The position numbers and the translations under genes are program-made. Below, piece after piece: positions 1,549 to 57,922 of a stretch of DNA of 64,000 nucleotides. The stretch is from Alphaproteobacteria bacterium (GTDB lineage: Bacteria; Pseudomonadota; Alphaproteobacteria; Rs-D84). The stretch is from contig WRCA01000001.1 of the NCBI GenBank assembly GCA_009784275.1, forward strand, positions 129,783 through 193,782, written 5' to 3'. How positions within the stretch are numbered: position 1 is the first letter of the stretch; each line of letters begins with the position of its first letter. The notes under the pieces are model-generated. The model saw nothing but the letters and a program-made list of their open reading frames with translations. It searched no databases and was not told the origin of the DNA.

Positions 1549-1627
1549 TATATCGTCATATTAAGACATTTTCTTTATGCGTTCAACATTAAATATGGTA
1601 TAATTATGGTTTGTTTGGGGGGCTGTT

Positions 1628-2419
1628 GTGAAGACGAAAATAGTTTATATTTCTGGCGGGGAAACCTTTGATGTAGCGGATGTACGCCGCGCTTTCGATG
1701 AAGTACGCAAGACATTGGCATTAAGCGAAGACACTGTTTTATTCGGTGTTCCGGTAGACAGCGATGGTGTGGAGCAAAAAGCCGACTTGTTTGCTGAATT
1801 GCCTGTCACAGAAAAAGTAGAAGAAGAGATAGTTGAAAAACCAAAAAGAACCCGCAAACCAAAGGCTGAAAAGCCAGAAATAAAAGAAGAGCCAGTATCA
1901 GAGCTTGAACCTGAACGCGTTATTCCTATTTTATCAGTTCTGTCGGGTGGGAAAGCGGAAGAATCGAAACCTGCGCCAGAACCGGTCGAAATCGTTGCTG
2001 CTGAAGAGGTTGAACCAGTCGATGCTTTTGATGAAATTGCTGTTGCTTTGGGCGAAGATTTGCCGATCGATGATGATAAGACGCCAAAGACCATAGAAGA
2101 TATTTTTGAAAACCTGACCCCCCTGCCCGAAGAAAAAATCATAGAAAGCACGCATTCCGCTGACCGTGATGACCGTGCAGATTTGGATGACGATGCGACC
2201 CTTTCAAAGCTGGCGGCCGAATTCGTAGAATCCCAAGGGATAAGCGAACCGGCGCCCACGGCACGTGGCACAAGAATGGGCAAGCTGAAAAACATTTTGC
2301 CATTTAAAAAAGCCAAGAAAGACGATACATCGATGCTGGGGGATTTATTCGGTTGGGCAGGCATCGCCGCGAACGAAGATGAAGCGACAACCCAAAGTTT
2401 TTTCAGGGCCAGCAATTAA
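1628..2419 (+). CDS. hypothetical acidic protein (Glu/Asp/Pro-rich middle, conserved-looking termini)
   Basis: 263 aa ORF with a GTG/TTG-type start context. It is strongly acidic. The antisense Ser-rich ORF 1645-2415 is treated as a shadow. Confidence 0.4.
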   Translation: MKTKIVYISGGETFDVADVRRAFDEVRKTLALSEDTVLFGVPVDSDGVEQKADLFAELPVTEKVEEEIVEKPKRTRKPKAEKPEIKEEPVSELEPERVIPILSVLSGGKAEESKPAPEPVEIVAAEEVEPVDAFDEIAVALGEDLPIDDDKTPKTIEDIFENLTPLPEEKIIESTHSADRDDRADLDDDATLSKLAAEFVESQGISEPAPTARGTRMGKLKNILPFKKAKKDDTSMLGDLFGWAGIAANEDEATTQSFFRASN

Positions 2420-2421
2420 AA

Positions 2422-2456
2422 AACTGATAATTAGTTATCAGTTTTAGTTATCAGTT
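2422..2456. promoter_or_regulatory. palindromic element AACTGATAA-TTA-GTTATCAGTT plus a third half-site GTTATCAGTT (candidate operator, or a weak AT-only hairpin)
   Basis: Perfect 9/10 bp inverted repeat at 2422-2443 and a direct copy of the half-site at 2447-2456. It ends 4 nt before the ATG of the 362 aa gene. Confidence 0.4.
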
Positions 2457-2459
2457 CTC

Positions 2460-3548
2460 ATGTATAATATAGACCAGATTCTTCGCCTGCTTGAAAATTC
2501 TGGATTCCAGAGGGTGACTTCTGATGGGGTATATATTTTTATGGAAGACCCCACTTGTTTTGTCCGCAGCTTGGAAGGTTTTGTTAATATCGCTTGGATC
2601 GCGATCACTGCTTTTGCAGGAATACTGCTGTTCGGATGGGGCATATCTTTAATTCGCGGCGCAAAAAATGATTTAAAAAGCGTTGCTGTGAACATCCGCA
2701 ACCTTTTTCTGATATTCGGAATTCTGGCGCTATCAAGACCCATCGCGAATGCGATTTGGGGCGGCGATGTATTTGCCCTGGGGTGCAATACCATCCAAGT
2801 GCCTGTTGCGAAAGTTAATGAGCTTATCGCTACTTCAAAACTTACTTTGAAAATGCGCAATGAAAATGACCTTTATGAAGACTTCGATATTTATGACACT
2901 GCGGTCAGTGGCGAAACCATGGGTCCCGAAAGCTATACCGGTATTACGGGCGCAGTTGGCATTAATATGCCGGAGATGCCGATAGAATCCACGGGAATAA
3001 TATCATATGGCAATGCGACCGGTGCAACAGGCACCACCCCTCTGCCCAGCGAAATTTCAGGCAGCGCCGGACGCGCGGTCATAAGCGCGAATGGTAAAAG
3101 TGTTACTTATTACGATGCTTATGGAAATGTTCTGGGGACAAAAATCGAAGGTTCGGCATCATGGAGGAATAATAATCCTGGGAATATGACTTGCAGCAGC
3201 GGCAAAGGACTTTATCTGGGCGCCATCGCATGCAACGGAAGGTTTCTTGTATTCGCCAACGAAGAAGCAGGAATGGACGCGCATGTTGCGAGATTAAAAC
3301 AATCTCGATATCAAAATGCTTGGCATAAAGAATGTCCGGACTTGCCCAAAGGCAGCCTGGGGTCTGCAATTTGCGTTTGGGCGCCACCATCGGATAATAA
3401 TTCGACCAGAAGCTATATGAATGCAGTGTCAAGCCGTACAGGAATACCACTGCATACACAAATGTCATCGCTTAACGATTCACAATTGCGAAGCATAGCA
3501 AAAGTGCAAAAAGAAAGAGAAGGCTGGACAGTAGGGAGGACGCAATAA
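2460..3548 (+). CDS. membrane-anchored hypothetical protein (2-3 N-terminal TM helices, C-terminal soluble domain with a WRNNNPGNM motif and conserved Cys)
   Basis: 362 aa ORF. Hydrophobic segments IAWIAITAFAGILLFGWGISLI and LFLIFGILALS. No recognisable catalytic motif. Confidence 0.45.
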   Translation: MYNIDQILRLLENSGFQRVTSDGVYIFMEDPTCFVRSLEGFVNIAWIAITAFAGILLFGWGISLIRGAKNDLKSVAVNIRNLFLIFGILALSRPIANAIWGGDVFALGCNTIQVPVAKVNELIATSKLTLKMRNENDLYEDFDIYDTAVSGETMGPESYTGITGAVGINMPEMPIESTGIISYGNATGATGTTPLPSEISGSAGRAVISANGKSVTYYDAYGNVLGTKIEGSASWRNNNPGNMTCSSGKGLYLGAIACNGRFLVFANEEAGMDAHVARLKQSRYQNAWHKECPDLPKGSLGSAICVWAPPSDNNSTRSYMNAVSSRTGIPLHTQMSSLNDSQLRSIAKVQKEREGWTVGRTQ

Positions 3549-4240
3549 TGTCAGATTTAGAAAATTCAAAAATTATAAGCGGAAGCTCTTTCGACACGGG
3601 TTCAAAAATCCCATGGGTTATGATAATACTGATAGTATTAATTGTCGGGGTGGCGATCGTTATCTTTGGAAGGTTAGGCAAAAAAAGTGAAGTAGTTGGC
3701 ACCGAAAAGCTGGGCGCAAAATATCTGCCGGAATTAAGCGGAAATGTCCCGGCACCAAAAATCGTACAAAAGGCGGAAGAGTTCAACGAAAACTATGAAT
3801 TTAATGACGGATTGGGGAACCCGGATAATATTCAGCGTTTTGAATTAGATGAAGATGGCACGGGTCTGGCCAGCATTGAAACCTTTAATGTTGATATCAA
3901 TGGCGATGGGATAAAAGATAAGATCACAAAAAGCAGATTTGAAAACGGTACTGCTCATTTTCACTATGACTACAAAATAGAATTAAATTTGGATGGACAA
4001 TTTACAGATATCACCCCCGCAGGTTTCAGGACTGTCGAAGGCGCCGATTGTTCGCTACAAAAATTAAGATTCTCCTTTTATCCGGATTTCCAAGTTATAA
4101 AAATTTCTCGCGATTGGGAAGATACTTGGGTTACGCCAACTATGGCGACAAAGACCATCTATAGGTTAAAAGATAACAAATTGGAAATTGCATCGACTTC
4201 AGCACTGAAAAAAATCTGCAACGTTTCGGATTTGTTTTAA
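3548..4240 (+). CDS. membrane-anchored hypothetical protein (single TM then about 170 aa domain), start overlaps the previous stop (TAATG)
   Basis: 230 aa ORF with TM IPWVMIILIVLIVGVAIVIFG. Translationally coupled to 2460-3548. Confidence 0.45.
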   Translation: MSDLENSKIISGSSFDTGSKIPWVMIILIVLIVGVAIVIFGRLGKKSEVVGTEKLGAKYLPELSGNVPAPKIVQKAEEFNENYEFNDGLGNPDNIQRFELDEDGTGLASIETFNVDINGDGIKDKITKSRFENGTAHFHYDYKIELNLDGQFTDITPAGFRTVEGADCSLQKLRFSFYPDFQVIKISRDWEDTWVTPTMATKTIYRLKDNKLEIASTSALKKICNVSDLF

Positions 4241-5718
4241 TCGCATTTCGGGCTTGTTTCACCGGCTTCTTTCAGCTCTGCACAGGCGGCATCGCGAACC
4301 CTCTTTGCGGATTCATATCTCTGCCATTCTACTTCGCCACCAGGACCGGCAAGTATCTGTGACCGCAATAATTCTTCTTCGCCCAGCGCCTTTTGGCCCA
4401 TCACTTTGCCGCCGATTGCCTTGTTACCGAACAGCTCCATAGCCCCAACGCCAACCGCTGCGCCACCAACAGCACCCGCGACAGTTATTCCGGTACGCGC
4501 GCCTTTCTTGGCATCAAGAATTTGCTTTTCTATGTTTTTTTCATTCAGCCATCCGCCGCAAGTCACCGTGCTGCCCACCATAAAGTACCGCGCCGGCATA
4601 TCATAAGTTTTTATACGCGAATCTTCACTGGCGATTCCTATGCGCACCCAGCATGCATTATTATCCGGGTTCTGTATATCTTCGGTCAAGTCCATATAAG
4701 ATATTCCAGTATTGTTTTTGGACGCCCAGACGAAAATATTGCTTCGCGCATCACCGCAGTCTTCTTTTTTATTCGGGCCAGATATTTGAAACTCGTCGCC
4801 CCAGTCCGCAATTTTCTCGCCGGATAAAGTACAATTTAAATCTTCAAAACCTTTTTTGATTTGATGCTTTTTTGTTACAACTGCGCTGACAATTCCGCCA
4901 ACAGCACCAAGGGTCGCACCCGCGATAGAATCGGAAGCCAAGCGCGCGGTGTTGAATTTTCCTTCGGCGTTTTTCCAAGCCGAGGCTTTTTCGCCAGCAT
5001 ACTGGGATTTGATAGAATCCATCAATTGCGATGATGTGTCAATCCTGAACTGCAGACCGGAAAGATCATCATTATCAAATTCCACTTCCTGGGCAACCAC
5101 GCATTCTTCTATATCGACAACTTCTTCCTGCGTTTCCAGATTGATAAGTTGCCCCATATCATTTTCTTCGCATTTAGTTTCTACAGGCTTTGATTTTGCT
5201 GGTTGTTTTGGTTTCGTAAGCTCTGGAGCAATCTTGGATAATTCCGGATATTTGTCATATACTACTTTCAGATATTTATCGCGTTTTTTTGCATCTGTTA
5301 TTCTTTTTGCCCTTACTGCTACAGAATACGGGCTAGTAACCTTCATATATTTTCTTTCTGTGAGAAGGTCAAAGATTTCCATATTATCATTATCCATCGC
5401 TACATATATCGGATATTTGCCTTGAAAATCTACGCCGGAATAGCCTGCATCAGCCAACTTTTTTATCACTCTTATGTCCGGCCAATCACTCACTGCGATA
5501 TACAGTGGGTTAAGCTTGCTATACCCATATTCATCCGCTTTTACTGTATCAATCTTTTCATTCAAACAATTGAAGTCTTTATTTTTGATACAAGTATTCA
5601 GTGCGCTCAACCTGTTATTATCAGCATTTATCGAAGCCATAGTAGTGAAAGAGGACGGGCCTGAATACGCAGGAGACACGCAAGGTAATAGAAAAAGTAA
5701 TAAATAAAATTTCCGCAT
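4237..5718 (-). CDS. secreted protein: signal peptide, ankyrin-like repeats, C-terminal glycine zipper resembling the 17-kDa-antigen/Gly-zipper OMP family
   Basis: Start at the ATG (MRKFYLLLFLLPCVSPAYS signal peptide). LNPLYIAVSD...GKYPIYVAMDNDNMEIFDLL is ankyrin-like. GITVAGAVGGAAVGVGAMELFG is a GxxxG zipper. The G9 tract is immediately 5' of the ATG. Confidence 0.55.
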   Translation of the reverse strand: MRKFYLLLFLLPCVSPAYSGPSSFTTMASINADNNRLSALNTCIKNKDFNCLNEKIDTVKADEYGYSKLNPLYIAVSDWPDIRVIKKLADAGYSGVDFQGKYPIYVAMDNDNMEIFDLLTERKYMKVTSPYSVAVRAKRITDAKKRDKYLKVVYDKYPELSKIAPELTKPKQPAKSKPVETKCEENDMGQLINLETQEEVVDIEECVVAQEVEFDNDDLSGLQFRIDTSSQLMDSIKSQYAGEKASAWKNAEGKFNTARLASDSIAGATLGAVGGIVSAVVTKKHQIKKGFEDLNCTLSGEKIADWGDEFQISGPNKKEDCGDARSNIFVWASKNNTGISYMDLTEDIQNPDNNACWVRIGIASEDSRIKTYDMPARYFMVGSTVTCGGWLNEKNIEKQILDAKKGARTGITVAGAVGGAAVGVGAMELFGNKAIGGKVMGQKALGEEELLRSQILAGPGGEVEWQRYESAKRVRDAACAELKEAGETSPKCD

Positions 5719-5723
5719 CACGA

Positions 5724-5732
5724 CCCCCCCCC
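5724..5732. repeat. homopolymeric C9 tract on the plus strand (G9 on the coding strand), 5 nt upstream of the start codon of the 4237-5718 gene
   Basis: cgaccccccccccgtc read directly. On the minus strand it reads ACGGGGGGGGGTCGTGATG. Confidence 0.9.
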
Positions 5733-5828
5733 GTCTTGACAACTTGAATTATAACATAAAATGAGAAATATAAAAATGGCAAAAATGCCGCAATGCGGCA
5801 GCGTAGATTAGTAATTAATTTGTCGATT

Positions 5829-12796: not shown

Positions 12797-13003
12797 ATGG
12801 TCAAAGTTTTGGTTCGCGACAATAATGTGGAACAGGCTCTGCGCGTGTCAAAGCGCAAGTCCCAGAAAGAAGGATTGTATCGCGAAATGAAAGAACGTCA
12901 GCGTTATGAAAAGCCGACGACAAAGCGCAAGCGCTTGAAAGAAGAAGCCGTACGTAATGAAAAAAAACGCCAATCCAAACAACGAATGGTGTTCGGATTC
13001 TAA
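12797..13003 (+). CDS. rpsU: 30S ribosomal protein S21
   Basis: [21 protein letters not shown]...RQRYEKPT. The AAAGGGGG ribosome binding site is 7 nt upstream. The upstream part of the ORF overlaps the tRNA and is discarded. Confidence 0.85.
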
Positions 13004-13029
13004 AAAAACCGCCTAAAGGCGGTTTTTTT
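13003..13029. terminator. bidirectional rho-independent terminator AAAAAACCGCCTAAAGGCGGTTTTTTT
   Basis: GC stem, 4 nt loop, flanking A and T tracts. Sits between convergent rpsU and the M23 peptidase gene. Confidence 0.65.
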
Positions 13030-14320
13030 ACATCGGAATTGATAATCTTGGATTTTTTTCCAGCGCAATCATCGCTTCATCAATTTTCTCGCGCACCTTC
13101 AAGAAGCTTTCTTTCTGCAACGCAGTCAAGTCATCTATACGCGGGAATGTCACAGTCATCGGATTCACGTGTACCCCGTTCTTTATAATTTCATAATGCA
13201 AGTGCGGCCCCGTCGATAACCCCGTGCTGCCCACATATCCGATAATTTGCCCCTGGGCCACCGTTGTGCCTACATTTACGCCCGCTTGAAATTTCGACAT
13301 GTGCGCATAAACCGTTTCGAATCCATTCGCATGTCGAATTCTTACGAAATTACCATATCCTTTATCAAAGGCGCGCTTTACGACCCGACCCGATCCTGCA
13401 GCCGGAATTTTGGTTCCCGATGCCGCACGGAAGTCTACACCCTTGTGCGCGCGGGTAAAGCCCAGCACCGGATGCTTTCTGTTTGGATTAAATTTGCTGG
13501 ATATACTGGCGCCGTCAATCGGGGTTCTTTTTAATGATTTAATTGCACCCTTGCCTTCTTCATCATAATACCCGAACTTTCCATCTGTTTTCTCATACCG
13601 ATACATTTTCAGTTTTCCACGACGATCAAGATGAGTATCGAAAGAAATCGCAATTACTCGTCCGCCATCTATGACTTTGCCATCTATCATGTTTTCTTCA
13701 TACAGCACTGCGAATTCTTGCCCTGGCTGAATATCACGTTCAAAGTCAATTTCAAACGCCAAGTAATTAATAATGTCATAGACTGTGCCAATCGGAATAT
13801 TAGATTCTATTGCCGTTTGGCTGAAAGTTCCGCCCGATGATATTTTTCCAGCGCGGCGAACTATGCGGGTATCTTTTTCAATGCTAACGATTTCCGCACC
13901 CCATTGTCCATCGGTGCAAGTCAGTTCTATCCGTTTCCATGCTCCGCTTGATAAAGTTATTTTTTCCACCGGCGCATCATTAGTTTTCTGTTGCAAAACC
14001 AACACATCCGAATTCGCGCGCAAGCCTGAAACCCCACAATCTTTCTTCAATAGCGCCGCGATAGTATTTATATCATTGCCAGATATATTATGGTCCGACA
14101 AAATCTTGGATAGAGTATCGCCCGCTTCTACTTGGATATGAGTTTCCACCGGCGGGCTGGAAATAATGCGACGGCCAGGCTTTGTTGCAAATAGAGCGGC
14201 CGCAACAACTATCAATATTCCTACCAAAATAATAGCTATGCGCGTCAGATTACGAGCTTTAAATATATTTTTTGCTTTTGCCATGGGGTGGATTATACTG
14301 TTTTTATGGATATGAATCAA
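13028..14320 (-). CDS. M23 family peptidoglycan metalloendopeptidase with LysM-like domain
   Basis: HKGVDF...GTKIPAAGSGRV...YGNFVRIRH...STGPHLHYEI (HxxxD and HxH motifs). N-terminal TM. LysM-like VEAGDTLSKIL. Confidence 0.8.
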   Translation of the reverse strand: MIHIHKNSIIHPMAKAKNIFKARNLTRIAIILVGILIVVAAALFATKPGRRIISSPPVETHIQVEAGDTLSKILSDHNISGNDINTIAALLKKDCGVSGLRANSDVLVLQQKTNDAPVEKITLSSGAWKRIELTCTDGQWGAEIVSIEKDTRIVRRAGKISSGGTFSQTAIESNIPIGTVYDIINYLAFEIDFERDIQPGQEFAVLYEENMIDGKVIDGGRVIAISFDTHLDRRGKLKMYRYEKTDGKFGYYDEEGKGAIKSLKRTPIDGASISSKFNPNRKHPVLGFTRAHKGVDFRAASGTKIPAAGSGRVVKRAFDKGYGNFVRIRHANGFETVYAHMSKFQAGVNVGTTVAQGQIIGYVGSTGLSTGPHLHYEIIKNGVHVNPMTVTFPRIDDLTALQKESFLKVREKIDEAMIALEKNPRLSIPM

Positions 14321-19721: not shown

Positions 19722-20285
19722 ATGGGCGACTGGTTAAGCACACAATACATAACTTCTCAAGTCTTTGTCAGTATCGCATACTTATTGCTGGCTTCTACTT
19801 ATTTTATAACTCAAAGACGCAGGCTGCTTTTGACAGTCATAACCAGCAACACTTCTATGGGCATAGGATTTGCCTTGCTGGGCGGATGGGTTGCGGTTGG
19901 CATGTGCATTATCGCGATTTGCCGGGATATAGTCAGCGACATTATAAATTCGCGCCGCAGTCCTGCTGACAAGATGAAAATCACAAAGTCCGACTGGTGG
20001 TGGCTGGCGTTATGGATTTCTTTATTCACAACCGTGATGGCATTCACGCAAACCGGATTCATGACTTTGTTCGCGTATTTCGCAACTATGACATTTACGA
20101 TTTCAATCTGGCAGAAAAATCAATTCATTTACAGATTCCTTGGGATTTTCGTTGGAATATTCTGGATAACTTATAATGTTGTTGTAAAAAGCTTTATGGG
20201 CATAACCCTGGAATCAGCATTGCTGATATTTGTGATAGCCGGACTTATCCAATATTGTATAAAAGAAAGAAAATCGAAAAGGTAA
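19722..20285 (+). CDS. inner membrane protein, YgjV-like (about 5 TM)
   Basis: 187 aa, multiple hydrophobic helices. Family assignment is tentative. Confidence 0.35.
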   Translation: MGDWLSTQYITSQVFVSIAYLLLASTYFITQRRRLLLTVITSNTSMGIGFALLGGWVAVGMCIIAICRDIVSDIINSRRSPADKMKITKSDWWWLALWISLFTTVMAFTQTGFMTLFAYFATMTFTISIWQKNQFIYRFLGIFVGIFWITYNVVVKSFMGITLESALLIFVIAGLIQYCIKERKSKR

Positions 20286-20315
20286 TAAAAATCCGCCCGA
20301 AGGCGGATTTTTTTT
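20286..20315. terminator. bidirectional terminator AAAAATCCGCCCGAAGGCGGATTTTTTTTT
   Basis: Hairpin between the convergent genes. Confidence 0.65.
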
Positions 20316-21180
20316 ATTTCAGCGCTTGCTGTATCTGCGCCGCAGGGACTGCGCCCGGGAACGCCTGATCTTGTATGATCAAGAACGGAGTACCTTGGAT
20401 TCCAAACTGTTGCGCCAATTCGCCAACCTGTGCCAATTCATTGTTGACGGTTTCGCTTTTCATATCGGCTTCCAGTTTATCGGCATCCAAGCCAACTTTC
20501 TTTGCCGCCGTCAGGATATTCTTCAAGATCGCTTTTTCCAGCGCTTCTTGGGACTGGCCTTTCAGATCATCCGGCCAATATGGCTTTTCAATCAACAGCT
20601 TATCCAATTCCGCAGCTTTGGTATTGTCTTGGATTTTCGCAGCAATCACTGCACGCGCGGCACCATCTGACAAGACGCCATGGATCGAGAAGTTTTTGAT
20701 GACAACGCGAACGTCTTTGTTGTTTCCCAAGACGGTTAACAACTCTTTATGAACGCGCGCGCAATACGGGCAAGAATAATCAGTGAACAAGAATATTGTT
20801 TTCTTTGCATTCACATCGCCCAGGATCGGAGCATTCGCGACCATTTCTGCCATATGCTTTTTAACATATTTTTTAACTTCCTTGCTAGATTTGCCTTGTT
20901 CCGCATTCTGTGCACCTTTCACCATTTCCATAACGATGCCAGGATTTACATCCGTCAGATAATACGGAGTCCACAAACGCGCAACGCCGATTATCAACAA
21001 AACAATCGATAGCAATTTTATCGATTTTTTCGCGATCATCACGCCAATCGTTGCCGGTTTTTTCATATCATGTTTGATCAGCATTCCGCCGAACAAGTAA
21101 AGAGCGACTGCAATAATCAGCGCCAGGATTGCCCAAGTCATTTTTTCTCCTTTATGTTTGAACGGTATTGAGAGTAGCAA
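20314..21180 (-). CDS. membrane-anchored DsbA-family thiol:disulfide oxidoreductase
   Basis: Two N-terminal TM helices. Thioredoxin-fold domain with DYSCPYCARVH (CPYC active site). Confidence 0.65.
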   Translation of the reverse strand: MLLSIPFKHKGEKMTWAILALIIAVALYLFGGMLIKHDMKKPATIGVMIAKKSIKLLSIVLLIIGVARLWTPYYLTDVNPGIVMEMVKGAQNAEQGKSSKEVKKYVKKHMAEMVANAPILGDVNAKKTIFLFTDYSCPYCARVHKELLTVLGNNKDVRVVIKNFSIHGVLSDGAARAVIAAKIQDNTKAAELDKLLIEKPYWPDDLKGQSQEALEKAILKNILTAAKKVGLDADKLEADMKSETVNNELAQVGELAQQFGIQGTPFLIIQDQAFPGAVPAAQIQQALK

Positions 21181-29393: not shown

Positions 29394-29424
29394 TAAAAAA
29401 ATCCGCCGATTGGCGGATTTTTTA
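29394..29424. terminator. bidirectional terminator AAAAAAATCCGCCGATTGGCGGATTTTTTA
   Basis: Between convergent pgk and the 717 aa gene. Overlaps the latter's stop codon. Confidence 0.65.
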
Positions 29425-57881: not shown

Positions 57882-57887
57882 ATATGA

Positions 57888-57917
57888 TAAAATCCCGCTT
57901 TTGCGGGATTTTTTTAT
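57888..57917. terminator. bidirectional terminator AAAATCCCGCTTTTGCGGGATTTTTTT
   Basis: Between convergent genes. Confidence 0.65.
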
Positions 57918-57922
57918 AACAT

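What the first reader, a model, noticed from the sequence alone, without database searches (positions are those of the whole stretch)
2422..4240. Triple half-site palindrome in front of a coupled pair of membrane-anchored unknown proteins
AACTGATAA-TTA-GTTATCAGTT plus a further direct half-site (GTTATCAGTT) ends 4 nt before the ATG of a 362 aa protein. That protein has N-terminal TMs and a C-terminal WRNNNPGNM/Cys domain, and its stop overlaps the start of a 230 aa single-TM protein. The element looks like an operator for a dimeric or tandem-binding regulator, with GATA-like TGATAA cores. The AT-only stem makes it a poor terminator. This is a two-gene accessory unit of unknown function under apparently tight control.
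Basis: seen in the sequence. Interest (0 to 1): 0.55.

Follow-up and report, generated by a model that had tools for sequence, protein, structure and literature searches.

The report
Anchored cell-wall hydrolase, partner, junction hairpin
The two "unknown" genes encode a membrane-anchored cell-wall-cutting enzyme of a phage-endolysin type and a dedicated partner protein that is probably its inhibitor, at the end of a three-gene operon next to the cell-division gene zapA, and the palindrome in front of them is a lineage-specific hairpin repeat between genes rather than a regulator's docking site.

Summary
A perfect 11+11 nt inverted repeat plus a third direct copy fills the 40-nt gap before a 362-aa ORF, whose stop overlaps the start of a 230-aa ORF.

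The operator reading does not hold.
- The gap lies inside an operon, between a conserved acidic protein gene and ORF1.
- In about 60 related species this gap is 0-19 nt.
- Only termite-gut relatives have it expanded. Most of those expansions are hairpins of short tandem repeats (6 of 7 fold far better than shuffles), each with a different sequence.
- The same class of element sits in other intergenic sites of those relatives.

ORF1 has a clade-specific two-helix membrane anchor, a disordered linker and an Enc34-type (PHA02564) lysozyme-like peptidoglycan glycosidase domain. The catalytic Glu, Tyr and aromatic residue are conserved. In other species the catalytic domain is replaced by GH24, GH108 or M23, or is absent.

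zapA is the divergent neighbour in 70 of 70 loci. This is a new variant of known kinds, of moderate interest.

The parts
1549..1627 (.). Divergent intergenic region between the small coiled-coil gene/zapA (minus strand) and the first operon gene. It is the likely promoter of the three-gene operon.
   Evidence: TGgTATAAT extended -10-like site at about 1597-1605, then a G-run before GTG 1628. The motif TATGCGTTCAAC is shared with the equivalent region of L025. This is inferred; no transcript data exist.
1628..2419 (+). First operon gene: a 263-aa acidic protein with no TM helix and conserved short motifs. It is a clade-specific protein of unknown function and a putative cytoplasmic scaffold.
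   Evidence: Invariant blocks MKTKIIYISGGE, PILSVLSG, GKLKNILPFKK and DLFGWAGIAAN.D..FF. It lies immediately upstream of ORF1 in every locus. It has 1334 homologues, all unnamed. No Pfam or PDB match.
2420..2459 (+). Intercistronic hairpin/repeat element: arm 1 at 2420-2430, arm 2 at 2435-2445, and tandem 13-mers at 2431-2443 and 2444-2456 (four heptamers AGTTATC-like at 2433-2460).
   Evidence: It is unique in the window and not conserved in orthologous loci.
2460..2870 (+). ORF1 N-terminal module (aa 1-137): acidic N-tail, TM1 (aa 41-65), short basic loop (aa 66-81), TM2 (aa 82-102), then a small strand+helix segment. Cys33 and Cys109 are invariant.
   Evidence: Alignments A1 and A6. AlphaFold helices 32-67 and 73-100. 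Charge and Cys counts. The module is shared by all variants, including 15 species that have nothing after it.
2871..3071 (+). ORF1 disordered linker (aa 138-204). It is the boundary at which C-terminal domains are exchanged or deleted.
   Evidence: pLDDT below 50 for aa 138-204. Length and sequence vary. BLASTP matches to the GH24, GH108 and M23 variants stop at aa 161-191. The deletion breakpoint in L066 falls here.
3072..3548 (+). ORF1 catalytic domain (aa 205-362), an Enc34-type (PHA02564) lysozyme-like peptidoglycan glycosidase. WRNNNPGN is at 3162-3185, W307 at 3378-3380, Y319 at 3414-3416 and E354 at 3519-3521.
   Evidence: Foldseek to PDB 7q47: E 1.5e-5, probability 1.0. Profile against PDB sequences: 9vvp Gp29 at 1.4e-18 and 7q47 at 3e-11. 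PHROG hits to tape-measure, ejection and 'endolysin' families. Catalytic residues mapped against PMC8943055.
3534..3540 (+). Shine-Dalgarno sequence GGGAGGA of ORF2, lying inside the 3' end of ORF1.
   Evidence: Read from the sequence.
3548..4240 (+). ORF2, 230 aa: N-terminal TM anchor (aa 22-41), variable linker, and a CarG-like beta-sandwich (aa ~83-230) with a DINGDGxxD loop and invariant Cys168 and Cys224.

Best explanation
The region 2422-4240 is the distal part of a three-gene operon (1628-4240). The operon is conserved next to zapA in Enterousia-like, uncultured gut Alphaproteobacteria.

ORF1 is a peptidoglycan glycosidase held at the inner membrane.
- A clade-specific two-helix hairpin anchors it, probably with both ends in the periplasm.
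- A disordered linker follows.
- The catalytic domain is Enc34-type (PHA02564), lysozyme-like.

ORF2 is made by translational coupling from the same mRNA. It is a membrane-tethered periplasmic CarG-like beta-sandwich that serves as the enzyme's dedicated partner. Most likely it is a stoichiometric inhibitor or regulator that keeps the tethered glycosidase from damaging the cell's own wall.

The enzyme domain and ORF2 form one exchangeable cassette. It is plugged into a conserved core made of the acidic protein and the membrane anchor, and that core's constant zapA neighbourhood suggests a role at the division site.

The palindrome is not an operator. It is a small, lineage-specific hairpin built from heptamer-like repeats, inserted into a gene junction that is normally 0-19 nt long. 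If it does anything, it acts on the mRNA. Folding leaves the upstream stop codon and the Shine-Dalgarno-less ORF1 start about 5 unpaired nt apart, so it could preserve or tune coupled translation or transcript stability.

Shown: the domain identities, the synteny, the cassette behaviour, and the non-conservation of the palindrome.
Inferred: the topology, the inhibitor role, the division link, and any RNA-level effect.
For: Enzyme identity:
- Foldseek to the Enc34 endolysin catalytic domain 7q47 gives E 1.5e-5, probability 1.0, about 133 columns.
- A profile of 40 homologues hits 7q47 at 3e-11 and phage Gp29 (9vvp) at 1.4e-18, through the RNNNPGN...APP.ENNT..Y...E signature.
- Enc34 Trp79, Tyr95 and Glu131 (PMC8943055) align with W307, Y319 and E354. 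Y319 and E354 are invariant in 40 sequences.
- Homologues sharing the N-terminal about 160 aa instead carry GH24, GH108+PG_binding_3 or M23.

ORF2:
- The CarG-like link is also reached transitively by sequence.

Cassette behaviour:
- ORF2 lies directly downstream in 54 of 54 species in the deduplicated tally with an Enc34-type enzyme, in the further Enc34-type loci L013, L088 and L089, and in 3 of 3 species with a GH24 enzyme.
- It is absent in 0 of 18 species with GH108, M23 or no catalytic domain.
- Losses fall on at least 8 branches of the tree.
- In L066, compared with L069, one 1.15-kb deletion removes the linker, the domain and ORF2 together.

Operon and coupling:
- The upstream gene's stop lies 0-19 nt from the ORF1 ATG in most species, with no Shine-Dalgarno sequence.
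- ORF1 and ORF2 overlap by 1 nt.

zapA is the divergent upstream neighbour in 70 of 70 loci.

Topology:
- The N-tail has a net charge of -2.2 and the TM1-TM2 loop +2.1.
- Cys33 is present in 40 of 40 sequences and Cys109 in 39 of 40.
- ORF2 has two invariant Cys.

Palindrome:
- It is unique in the window.
- It is absent from all orthologues.
- Expanded junctions in relatives are hairpins with different sequences, z from -3.3 to -13.
- Similar heptamer-array hairpins occur at other intergenic sites in relatives.
Against: - No biochemical evidence exists for activity, binding or inhibition.
- Because the domain and ORF2 are adjacent, one deletion removes both. Co-loss is therefore weaker evidence of functional dependence than the raw counts suggest.
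- A standalone secreted Enc34-type paralogue in many relatives has no ORF2-like neighbour, so not every such enzyme needs this partner.
- ORF2 has basic residues after its TM helix (RLGKK), which does not fit the positive-inside rule cleanly.
- The division link rests on gene neighbourhood alone.
- Only 64 kb of this genome, plus about 7.5 kb of upstream flank, was searched for further palindromes.
- The closest relative with an upstream region (L088) has direct heptamer repeats but no hairpin. Structure is therefore not universally kept.
Confidence: 0.6

Rival explanations
1. The triple half-site is a DNA operator for a dimeric or tandem-binding transcription factor that tightly controls a two-gene unit.
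For: Perfect dyad symmetry with an extra direct half-site. The exact half-site TTATCAGTT is somewhat over-represented in the window: 32 matches with up to 1 mismatch against 17 expected. The same 9+9 palindrome is used as a multi-copy intergenic motif in unrelated aquatic phage-like contigs, so proteins or structures that use this sequence exist somewhere.
Against: The element lies between cistrons of a tight operon, and no promoter-like site is found in or near it. There is no sequence conservation in any of about 75 orthologous loci. No second palindrome occurs in 64 kb. It does not match a Fur-type box. Relatives keep the structure but not the sequence. No regulator gene is adjacent.
Confidence: 0.08
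2. ORF1 and ORF2 are a polymorphic toxin and immunity pair for killing competitors. The N-terminal module is a delivery or anchoring part, the C-terminal cell-wall hydrolase is the toxin, and ORF2 is the cognate immunity protein.
For: The C-terminal domain and the downstream gene are exchanged as a unit after a conserved junction motif (..LYEEFDIYDSG). There are four enzyme types and three unrelated downstream proteins. The ORF2 fold family includes the hydrolase-immunity protein XAC2610.
Against: The locus is fixed in the core genome next to zapA in 70 of 70 species. There is one copy per locus and no orphan cassettes. No secretion-system genes appear in the window or the loci. The protein is small, with an internal membrane hairpin, and lacks any known trafficking domain. 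Fifteen species keep the N-module alone, which argues that it has a role of its own.
Confidence: 0.12
3. ORF2 is not an inhibitor. It is an activator, adaptor or substrate-binding partner, for example one that positions or switches on the tethered glycosidase much as EnvC or NlpD activate amidases.
For: The same perfect co-occurrence and translational coupling fit an obligatory cofactor equally well. The CarG mechanism is unknown. ORF2 is kept when the Enc34-type domain is replaced by GH24, so it is not tied to one active-site geometry.
Against: Known proteins with related beta-sandwich or propeller-like folds that pair with cell-wall hydrolases (PliI, Tsi1, X-Tfi) are inhibitors (PMC10933484). 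Enc34's isolated domain is active without any partner (PMC8943055). The 134-141 strand-loop of ORF2 differs systematically between Enc34-linked copies (GTAHFYY) and GH24-linked copies (GTxPGYW or similar). That fits a direct, enzyme-specific contact but does not tell inhibition from activation.
Confidence: 0.2
4. The palindrome has no function at all. It is a slippage product or a remnant of a small repeat element that happens to sit in a tolerant spot.
For: It consists of a 13-nt perfect tandem duplication plus one inverted copy. Related genomes carry many heptamer-array hairpins, and MITE-like insertions, in assorted intergenic sites. One sits between ORF1 and ORF2 in L013. L011, L016 and L017 manage with a gap of -1 to 3 nt.
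Against: The junction is occupied by hairpins in at least six termite-gut lineages. The stem bases lie next to the stop and start codons. L045 and L089 share a central 20-nt palindrome at this same site. This hints at persistence rather than random hits.
Confidence: 0.35

Closest known systems
Enc34 endolysin catalytic domain (family PHA02564; PDB 7Q47; Cernooka et al. 2022, PMC8943055)
   Same: Same domain by sequence profile and by fold. It has the same RNNNPGN motif and the same Trp/Tyr/Glu active-site signature. Enc34 is also a membrane-anchored form, with two TM helices.
   Different: Enc34 is a phage lysis-cassette gene with the anchor at the C-terminus. Here the domain is C-terminal to a clade-specific N-terminal anchor, in a chromosomal operon conserved across an order-level bacterial clade, and it is paired with a CarG-like protein.
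Virion-associated cell-wall hydrolase domains in phage tape-measure, ejection and head proteins (PHROGs 2276, 873, 7182, 992; PDB 9vvp Gp29)
   Same: The same about 110-aa domain is embedded in them.
   Different: Those are very large structural proteins of phage particles. ORF1 is a 362-aa bacterial membrane protein.
CarG, carbapenem intrinsic resistance protein (PDB 4O7J; Pfam PF21955)
   Different: There is no carbapenem gene cluster here. ORF2 has a TM tether and is coupled to a glycosidase. CarG's mechanism is unknown. My recollection that its fold was compared with the lysozyme inhibitor PliI comes from memory of Tichy et al. 2014 and was not checked here.
Cell-wall hydrolase and inhibitor pairs: X-Tfe/X-Tfi (XAC2609/XAC2610), Tse1/Tsi1, i-type lysozyme/PliI
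   Different: Those pairs are effectors of secretion systems or defences against host lysozyme. Here the enzyme is tethered in the producer's own membrane at a fixed core-genome locus. Inhibition is untested.
Division-linked control of cell-wall hydrolases (FtsEX with EnvC/amidases, PcsB, CwlO, RipC)
   Same: A membrane component encoded with division genes is coupled to a periplasmic hydrolase whose enzyme type differs between lineages.
   Different: There is no homology to FtsE or FtsX. The division link here rests on zapA neighbourhood only.
Intergenic palindromic repeats (REP/BIME elements; cyanobacterial STRR heptamer repeats; named from memory)
   Same: Short repeats that form hairpins in intergenic and intercistronic positions. 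The sequence varies and the structure is kept. Heptamer periodicity resembles STRR.
   Different: The copy in this window is minimal (40 nt) and single in 64 kb. Relatives' elements have long arms and, in three species, a shared core TGTCCAWTATATTGGACA that is absent here.

Membership tests
Enc34-type endolysin domain (PHA02564) | Significant sequence similarity to family members | tested here: met
   A profile of 40 homologues against PDB sequences gives 7q47 at E 3e-11 and 9vvp Gp29 at E 1.4e-18. PHROG hits go down to 1.2e-11 for the window protein and 2e-22 for a homologue.
Enc34-type endolysin domain (PHA02564) | Fold of the Enc34 catalytic domain | tested here: met
   The AlphaFold model has pLDDT above 90 over aa 210-362. 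Foldseek to 7q47 gives E 1.5e-5, probability 1.0, TM 0.55 normalised to the target; every other hit has E above 1.
Enc34-type endolysin domain (PHA02564) | Catalytic Glu with conserved Tyr and aromatic residue (Glu131, Tyr95, Trp79 in Enc34) | tested here: met
   E354, Y319 and W307 align with them. E354 and Y319 are invariant. Position 307 is W or Y across the family.
Enc34-type endolysin domain (PHA02564) | Muralytic activity on peptidoglycan | not testable with these tools
   Needs purified protein and a turbidity or muropeptide assay.
CarG-like (Pfam PF21955) | Score above the Pfam gathering cutoff (28 bits) | tested here: not met
   The window protein scores 19.6 bits, E 0.001. Sixteen of 37 family members give hits, all below threshold.
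CarG-like (Pfam PF21955) | Linked to bona fide members through intermediate sequences | tested here: met
   The ORF2 profile finds P0338, P0352, P0354, P0356, P0358 and P0361 at E 2e-14 to 9e-6 across the whole library. Each of these passes the CarG-like cutoff, at 33.6-44.9 bits.
CarG-like (Pfam PF21955) | CarG fold | tested here: met
CarG-like (Pfam PF21955) | Association with carbapenem biosynthesis or resistance genes | tested here: not met
   No car-like genes were found in the window or in any locus.
Cognate inhibitor or immunity protein of a cell-wall hydrolase | Encoded next to, and co-expressed with, the hydrolase | tested here: met
   1-nt overlap in the window. The gap is usually below 25 nt in the tallied species; some calls overlap ORF1, and L013 has a 277-nt gap from a MITE-like insertion.
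Cognate inhibitor or immunity protein of a cell-wall hydrolase | Presence tracks the enzyme domain across genomes | tested here: met
   60 of 60 loci with an Enc34-type or GH24 domain carry it (54 tallied Enc34-type species, plus L013, L088 and L089, plus 3 GH24 species). None of the 18 species without such a domain does. Caveat: the two are adjacent, so single deletions remove both.
Cognate inhibitor or immunity protein of a cell-wall hydrolase | Same compartment as the enzyme (periplasm) | tested here: inconclusive
   ORF2 has a TM anchor, two invariant Cys and a Ca-loop-like DxNxDGxxD motif. The flanking charges are ambiguous. There is no experimental topology.
Cognate inhibitor or immunity protein of a cell-wall hydrolase | Direct binding and inhibition of the enzyme | not testable with these tools
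Needs pull-down and activity assays.
Transcription-factor operator | Overlaps or adjoins the promoter of the regulated gene | tested here: not met
   The position is intercistronic and the gap is 0-19 nt in most species. The scan finds no promoter-like site at 2300-2460.
Transcription-factor operator | Sequence conserved at orthologous loci | tested here: not met
   None of about 75 loci carries it. Even the closest relatives differ.
Transcription-factor operator | Further copies in the genome (regulon) | tested here: inconclusive
   None in 64 kb. The rest of the genome was not available, and the metagenome scan was truncated.
Intrinsic terminator | G+C-rich stem followed by a U tract | tested here: not met
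   2 of 11 stem pairs are G-C. The scan does not call it. Genuine terminators in this window look different.
Polymorphic toxin system | C-terminal domain and downstream gene exchanged as a unit after a conserved motif | tested here: met
Polymorphic toxin system | Linked secretion or delivery apparatus, variable genomic location, orphan cassettes | tested here: not met
   The locus is fixed and zapA-linked in 70 of 70 loci. No secretion genes or orphan cassettes were found in the loci or the window.

The most novel reading that the evidence does not exclude
A conserved division-linked core (acidic scaffold protein plus a two-helix membrane anchor, always divergent from zapA) serves as a socket. 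Lineages plug, swap or drop an 'enzyme domain plus cognate partner gene' cassette into it. This is the cassette logic of polymorphic toxins, used here for a housekeeping autolysin. By extension, the CarG-like fold would be a family of inhibitors of lysozyme-type cell-wall glycosidases, which would also suggest how CarG protects carbapenem producers.
Probability: 0.25. Interest if true: 0.65.

Novelty: new variant of a known kind. Interest (0 to 1): 0.42.

Why it matters
- It assigns a testable function to two "hypothetical" families that are confined to abundant but uncultured gut Alphaproteobacteria (Enterousia and termite-gut relatives, with genomes of about 1 Mb).
- It shows the recently defined Enc34-type glycosidase domain working outside phages, as a chromosomal, membrane-tethered enzyme.
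- It gives the first comparative-genomic clue to what a CarG-like protein pairs with.
- The strict zapA linkage and the swap-or-drop behaviour of the enzyme cassette point to an undescribed way of attaching cell-wall hydrolases to a division-associated membrane module.
- The palindrome that triggered the finding is ordinary.

Tried and rejected
- Pfam and NCBIfam on ORF1, ORF2 and the upstream protein gave nothing above threshold.
- Profile searches of PDB sequences with the upstream protein, the N-module and ORF2 gave no meaningful hit.
- Fur-box idea: TGATAAT-TA-GTTATCA resembles the 7-1-7 Fur box but has a 2-nt spacer. The element is not among the matches with up to 3 mismatches, and such boxes are not enriched. 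Rejected.
- DnaA box, CtrA box and CcrM site were compared by eye. None matches.
- Terminator: rejected.
- TATAAT at 2463-2468, inside the first codons of ORF1, has no usable -35 at 16-18 nt. It is treated as chance.
It returned only unrelated contigs and not the locus itself, so it says nothing about this genome.
- The CarG structure paper could not be retrieved.
- The afdb50 fold library was unavailable.
- Pfam on the replacement downstream proteins of the GH108 and M23 loci gave no hits.
- A prophage origin of the locus was considered and rejected. The flanks are housekeeping genes and synteny is fixed.
Full report
OBSERVATION

The sequence is as described.
- Arms AAAACTGATAA (2420-2430) and TTATCAGTTTT (2435-2445) are perfectly complementary around the spacer TTAG.
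- The 13-mer TTAGTTATCAGTT occurs twice in tandem (2431-2456).
- CTC separates the last copy from the ATG at 2460.
- The element fills the whole 40-nt gap between the stop codon of ORF 1628-2419 and ORF1.
- Tandem Repeats Finder also reads 2433-2460 as four heptamers of the AGTTATC type.
- The palindrome is unique in the 64-kb window.
- The 46-nt gap folds better than all 200 shuffles (-11.7 kcal/mol, z -4.7). Arm 1 can pair with either of the two direct copies.
- ORF1 (2460-3548, 362 aa) and ORF2 (3548-4240, 230 aa) overlap by one base.
- ORF2 has a GGGAGGA Shine-Dalgarno sequence. ORF1 has none.

WHAT ORF1 IS

Pfam and NCBIfam gave nothing. A homologue search found 89 proteins, all from uncultured gut Alphaproteobacteria: Candidatus Enterousia, termite-gut 'Rickettsiales' and similar MAGs.

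About a dozen of them match only the first 160 or so residues. Their C-terminal halves carry GH24 lysozyme, GH108 plus PG_binding_3, or M23 peptidase domains. The WRNNNPGN domain therefore sits in a slot that other lineages fill with known cell-wall hydrolases.

The domain itself is identifiable.
- PHROG profiles of phage tape-measure, ejection and 'endolysin' proteins match it.
- A profile of 40 homologues hits two PDB sequences: phage Gp29 (9vvp, E 1.4e-18) and the Enc34 endolysin (7q47, E 3e-11).
- The AlphaFold model (pLDDT above 90 for aa 210-362) matches 7q47 with Foldseek probability 1.0. No other hit has E below 1.

The Enc34 paper shows that this domain (family PHA02564) is muralytic. 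It proposes Glu131 as the catalytic residue, with Trp79 and Tyr95, and relates the fold to GH73 and GH23 (PMC8943055). These three residues align with W307, Y319 and E354. Y319 and E354 are invariant in the family.

The N-terminal module has these features.
- Two hydrophobic helices at aa 41-65 and 82-102.
- An acidic N-tail (net charge -2.2) and a short basic connecting loop (net +2.1).
- Invariant Cys33 and Cys109, which flank the helices.

The simplest reading is a hairpin with both ends in the periplasm. That is where a cell-wall enzyme must be. It is an inference.

Residues 138-204 are disordered and variable.

WHAT ORF2 IS

The family is small: 68 homologues, and 111 representatives among 1.84 billion proteins.

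It has an N-terminal TM helix, a variable linker and a well-predicted beta-sandwich (pLDDT above 90). The sandwich has a DINGDGxxD loop and two invariant Cys.

The Pfam CarG-like model is hit below threshold by 16 of 37 members. Distant hits of the ORF2 profile pass that model's cutoff. ORF2 is therefore a divergent CarG-like protein.

XAC2610, Tsi1 and PliI are inhibitors that insert a loop into the active site of their hydrolase (PMC10933484).

CONTEXT AND COMPARATIVE GENOMICS

Loci from five distinct relatives, plus 73 species-representative genomes, were analysed with HMMs built here.

(i) The 263-aa acidic protein gene is always immediately upstream of ORF1. In most species its stop lies 0-19 nt from the ORF1 start, and no Shine-Dalgarno sequence is present. 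This indicates a three-gene operon with coupled translation.

(ii) zapA, usually with a small coiled-coil gene, is the divergent upstream neighbour in 70 of 70 loci. Genes further out differ.

(iii) ORF2 follows ORF1 in all 54 species in the deduplicated tally whose ORF1 has the Enc34-type domain, and in the further Enc34-type loci L013, L088 and L089. It also follows ORF1 in all 3 species with the GH24 domain.
- In GH108 and M23 species it is replaced by unrelated small exported proteins.
- It is absent in the 15 species whose ORF1 ends right after the anchor module.

(iv) Those 15 species fall on at least 8 branches of a tree of the anchor module.

(v) In L066, compared with L069, a single 1.15-kb deletion removes the linker, the catalytic domain and ORF2.

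Catalytic domain and ORF2 are therefore one cassette, and the acidic protein plus the anchor are the conserved core.

A strand-loop of ORF2 (aa 134-141) reads GTAHFYY in Enc34-linked copies and GTxPGYW-like in GH24-linked copies. This hints at an enzyme-specific contact. It could equally be a lineage effect.

The rest of the window is housekeeping: FtsY, ParC, ABC transporters, M23/Csd3-like, SLT, a CcrM-like methylase and tRNA synthetases. No secretion system is present.

THE PALINDROME IN CONTEXT

No orthologous locus has the window's sequence. Expanded junctions occur only in termite-gut relatives.

| Locus | Gap (nt) | Content | Fold |
|---|---|---|---|
| L088 | 67 | Direct AGCTCTC-type heptamers up to the ATG | No hairpin |
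| L089 | 129 | Inverted heptamer arrays | -64.9 kcal/mol, z -13 |
| L045 | 124 | Inverted heptamer arrays | z -5.9 |
| L025 | 182 | Inverted heptamer arrays | -103 kcal/mol, z -12.7 |
| L009 | 85 | Inverted repeat arrays | z -3.3 |
| L004 | 137 | G+C-rich inverted repeat | z -9.5 |

- The arms differ in sequence between species. L045 and L089 share a central palindrome, TTGTCCAATATATTGGACAA.
- Similar heptamer-array hairpins occur at other intergenic sites of the same relatives. One in L004 carries nearly the same core.
- A MITE-like insertion separates ORF1 from ORF2 in L013.
- The core is absent from the window.

The window's element is thus a minimal, single representative of a class of intergenic hairpin repeats. 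Structure is kept, sequence is not, and the position is inside an operon.

This argues against a sequence-specific operator. It fits an RNA-level or neutral role. In the minimum-free-energy fold the stem starts 2 nt after the stop codon and ends 3 nt before the AUG. The hairpin would therefore loop out the insertion and keep stop and start close together. Whether this matters is untested.

Promoter-like and terminator-like scans find nothing at the element. The window's true terminators have G+C stems with T runs. A likely promoter lies upstream of the first gene.

MECHANISM PROPOSED

The three genes are transcribed from about 1600 and translated in a coupled chain. ORF1 inserts as a hairpin and displays a flexible linker and an Enc34-type glycosidase at the periplasmic face. 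ORF2, tethered beside it, binds the catalytic domain and restrains or regulates it. The acidic protein and the anchor, always encoded beside zapA, may place the enzyme at the division site.

- Shown: the domain identities, the catalytic signature, the synteny, the cassette co-variation, and the non-conservation of the palindrome.
- Inferred: the topology, inhibition rather than activation, the division role, and any effect of the hairpin.

LIMITS

- No activity, binding or transcript data exist.
- Only 64 kb of the genome, plus about 7.5 kb of upstream flank, was examined for further copies of the palindrome.
- The metagenome scan was truncated and uninformative.
- The statements on CarG/PliI similarity and on cyanobacterial STRR repeats rest on memory, not on papers read here.

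Noticed in passing
window 1628-2419: The upstream 263-aa acidic protein has a string of invariant short motifs (MKTKIIYISGGE, PILSVLSG, TPKTIEDIFENLTPL, GKLKNILPFKK, DLFGWAGIAAN.D..FF) separated by variable acidic spacers. It has 1334 unnamed homologues and no Pfam or PDB match. It looks like a scaffold with short linear motifs and is always encoded divergently from zapA.
   Followed up: partly
L039, L042, L047, L051, L053, L059, L066-L068, L070, L071, L074, L077, L083, L086 (about 3998-4570 in each): Fifteen species keep only the N-terminal anchor module of ORF1 (146-190 aa), with no catalytic domain and no ORF2. The anchor therefore has a role of its own.
   Followed up: partly
L018:1572-2303, L033:1366-2322, L051:1499-2335, L059:1637-2398, L074:1633-2421 and others: Many Enterousia genomes encode a second, standalone Enc34-type protein with a signal peptide about 2.4 kb upstream of the operon. 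It has no ORF2-like neighbour and is absent from this window.
   Followed up: partly
L013:819-1095: In the closest relative (ORF2 76% identical), an insertion of about 250 bp with terminal inverted repeats of about 30 nt (GGTCTTATCGGCAATCATAGTGCCGATTTG...) separates ORF1 from ORF2 and clips the ORF1 C-terminus. It looks like a MITE.
   Followed up: no
L045:3855-3874, L089:4869-4888, L004:10991-11006: A near-identical core palindrome, TGTCCAWTATATTGGACA, flanked by inverted arrays of species-specific heptamers, occurs in three species. In two it sits at the operon junction and in one at an unrelated intergenic site. It may be a dispersed repeat family or a conserved binding site. It is absent from this window.
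   Followed up: partly
L025:2831-2861; L089:3229-3319 and 765-813; L004:12371-12437: Heptamer tandem arrays, often as inverted pairs that form strong hairpins, are common in intergenic regions of the termite-gut relatives. Each array has its own heptamer. L025's ACTGACC/ACTAACC array in the operon promoter region resembles L045's junction array.
   Followed up: partly
L093, L154, L112, L115, L133, L156, L166 (metagenome contigs): Unrelated contigs from aquatic metagenomes, about 50% G+C, carry 2-4 copies each of AACTGATAA-N4-TTATCAGTT at intergenic-looking spacings of about 570 bp. There it appears to be a recurrent regulatory or terminator motif of some phage-like genome.
   Followed up: no
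P0002 and P0008 (L088:877-1920; L089 from 4951): Two relatives have a Cys/Pro-rich insertion (CGACQSPPCPACPP or CQTAPCPSCPP) in the N-tail of ORF1. In L089 the called start (5001) is probably wrong, and the ATG at 4951 restores the conserved N-terminus.
   Followed up: no
L018-L060 junctions (about 3980-4003 in each): In vertebrate-gut Enterousia species, the 14-19-nt gap between the upstream gene and ORF1 has a conserved sequence (GCnnAATATATGAGTyCTr) containing an out-of-frame ATGA. It may be a conserved coupling signal.
   Followed up: no
window 4237-5742 (minus strand): A convergent 501-aa ORF with a signal-like N-terminus, a weak ankyrin-repeat hit (E 0.02) and a Gly-rich hydrophobic C-terminal region. 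Its function is unknown. Similar-sized unnamed genes occupy this position in L013 and L014.
   Followed up: no
window 2463-2468: A perfect TATAAT lies in codons 2-3 of ORF1 with no usable -35 box. It is probably a by-product of AT-rich Tyr-Asn codons.
   Followed up: partly
window 13001-13030, 20283-20316, 29396-29423, 57883-57918: Typical intrinsic terminators of this genome (AAAAAATCCGCC-N4-GGCGGATTTTTT type). They were useful as a contrast with the AT-rich hairpin at 2420.
   Followed up: no
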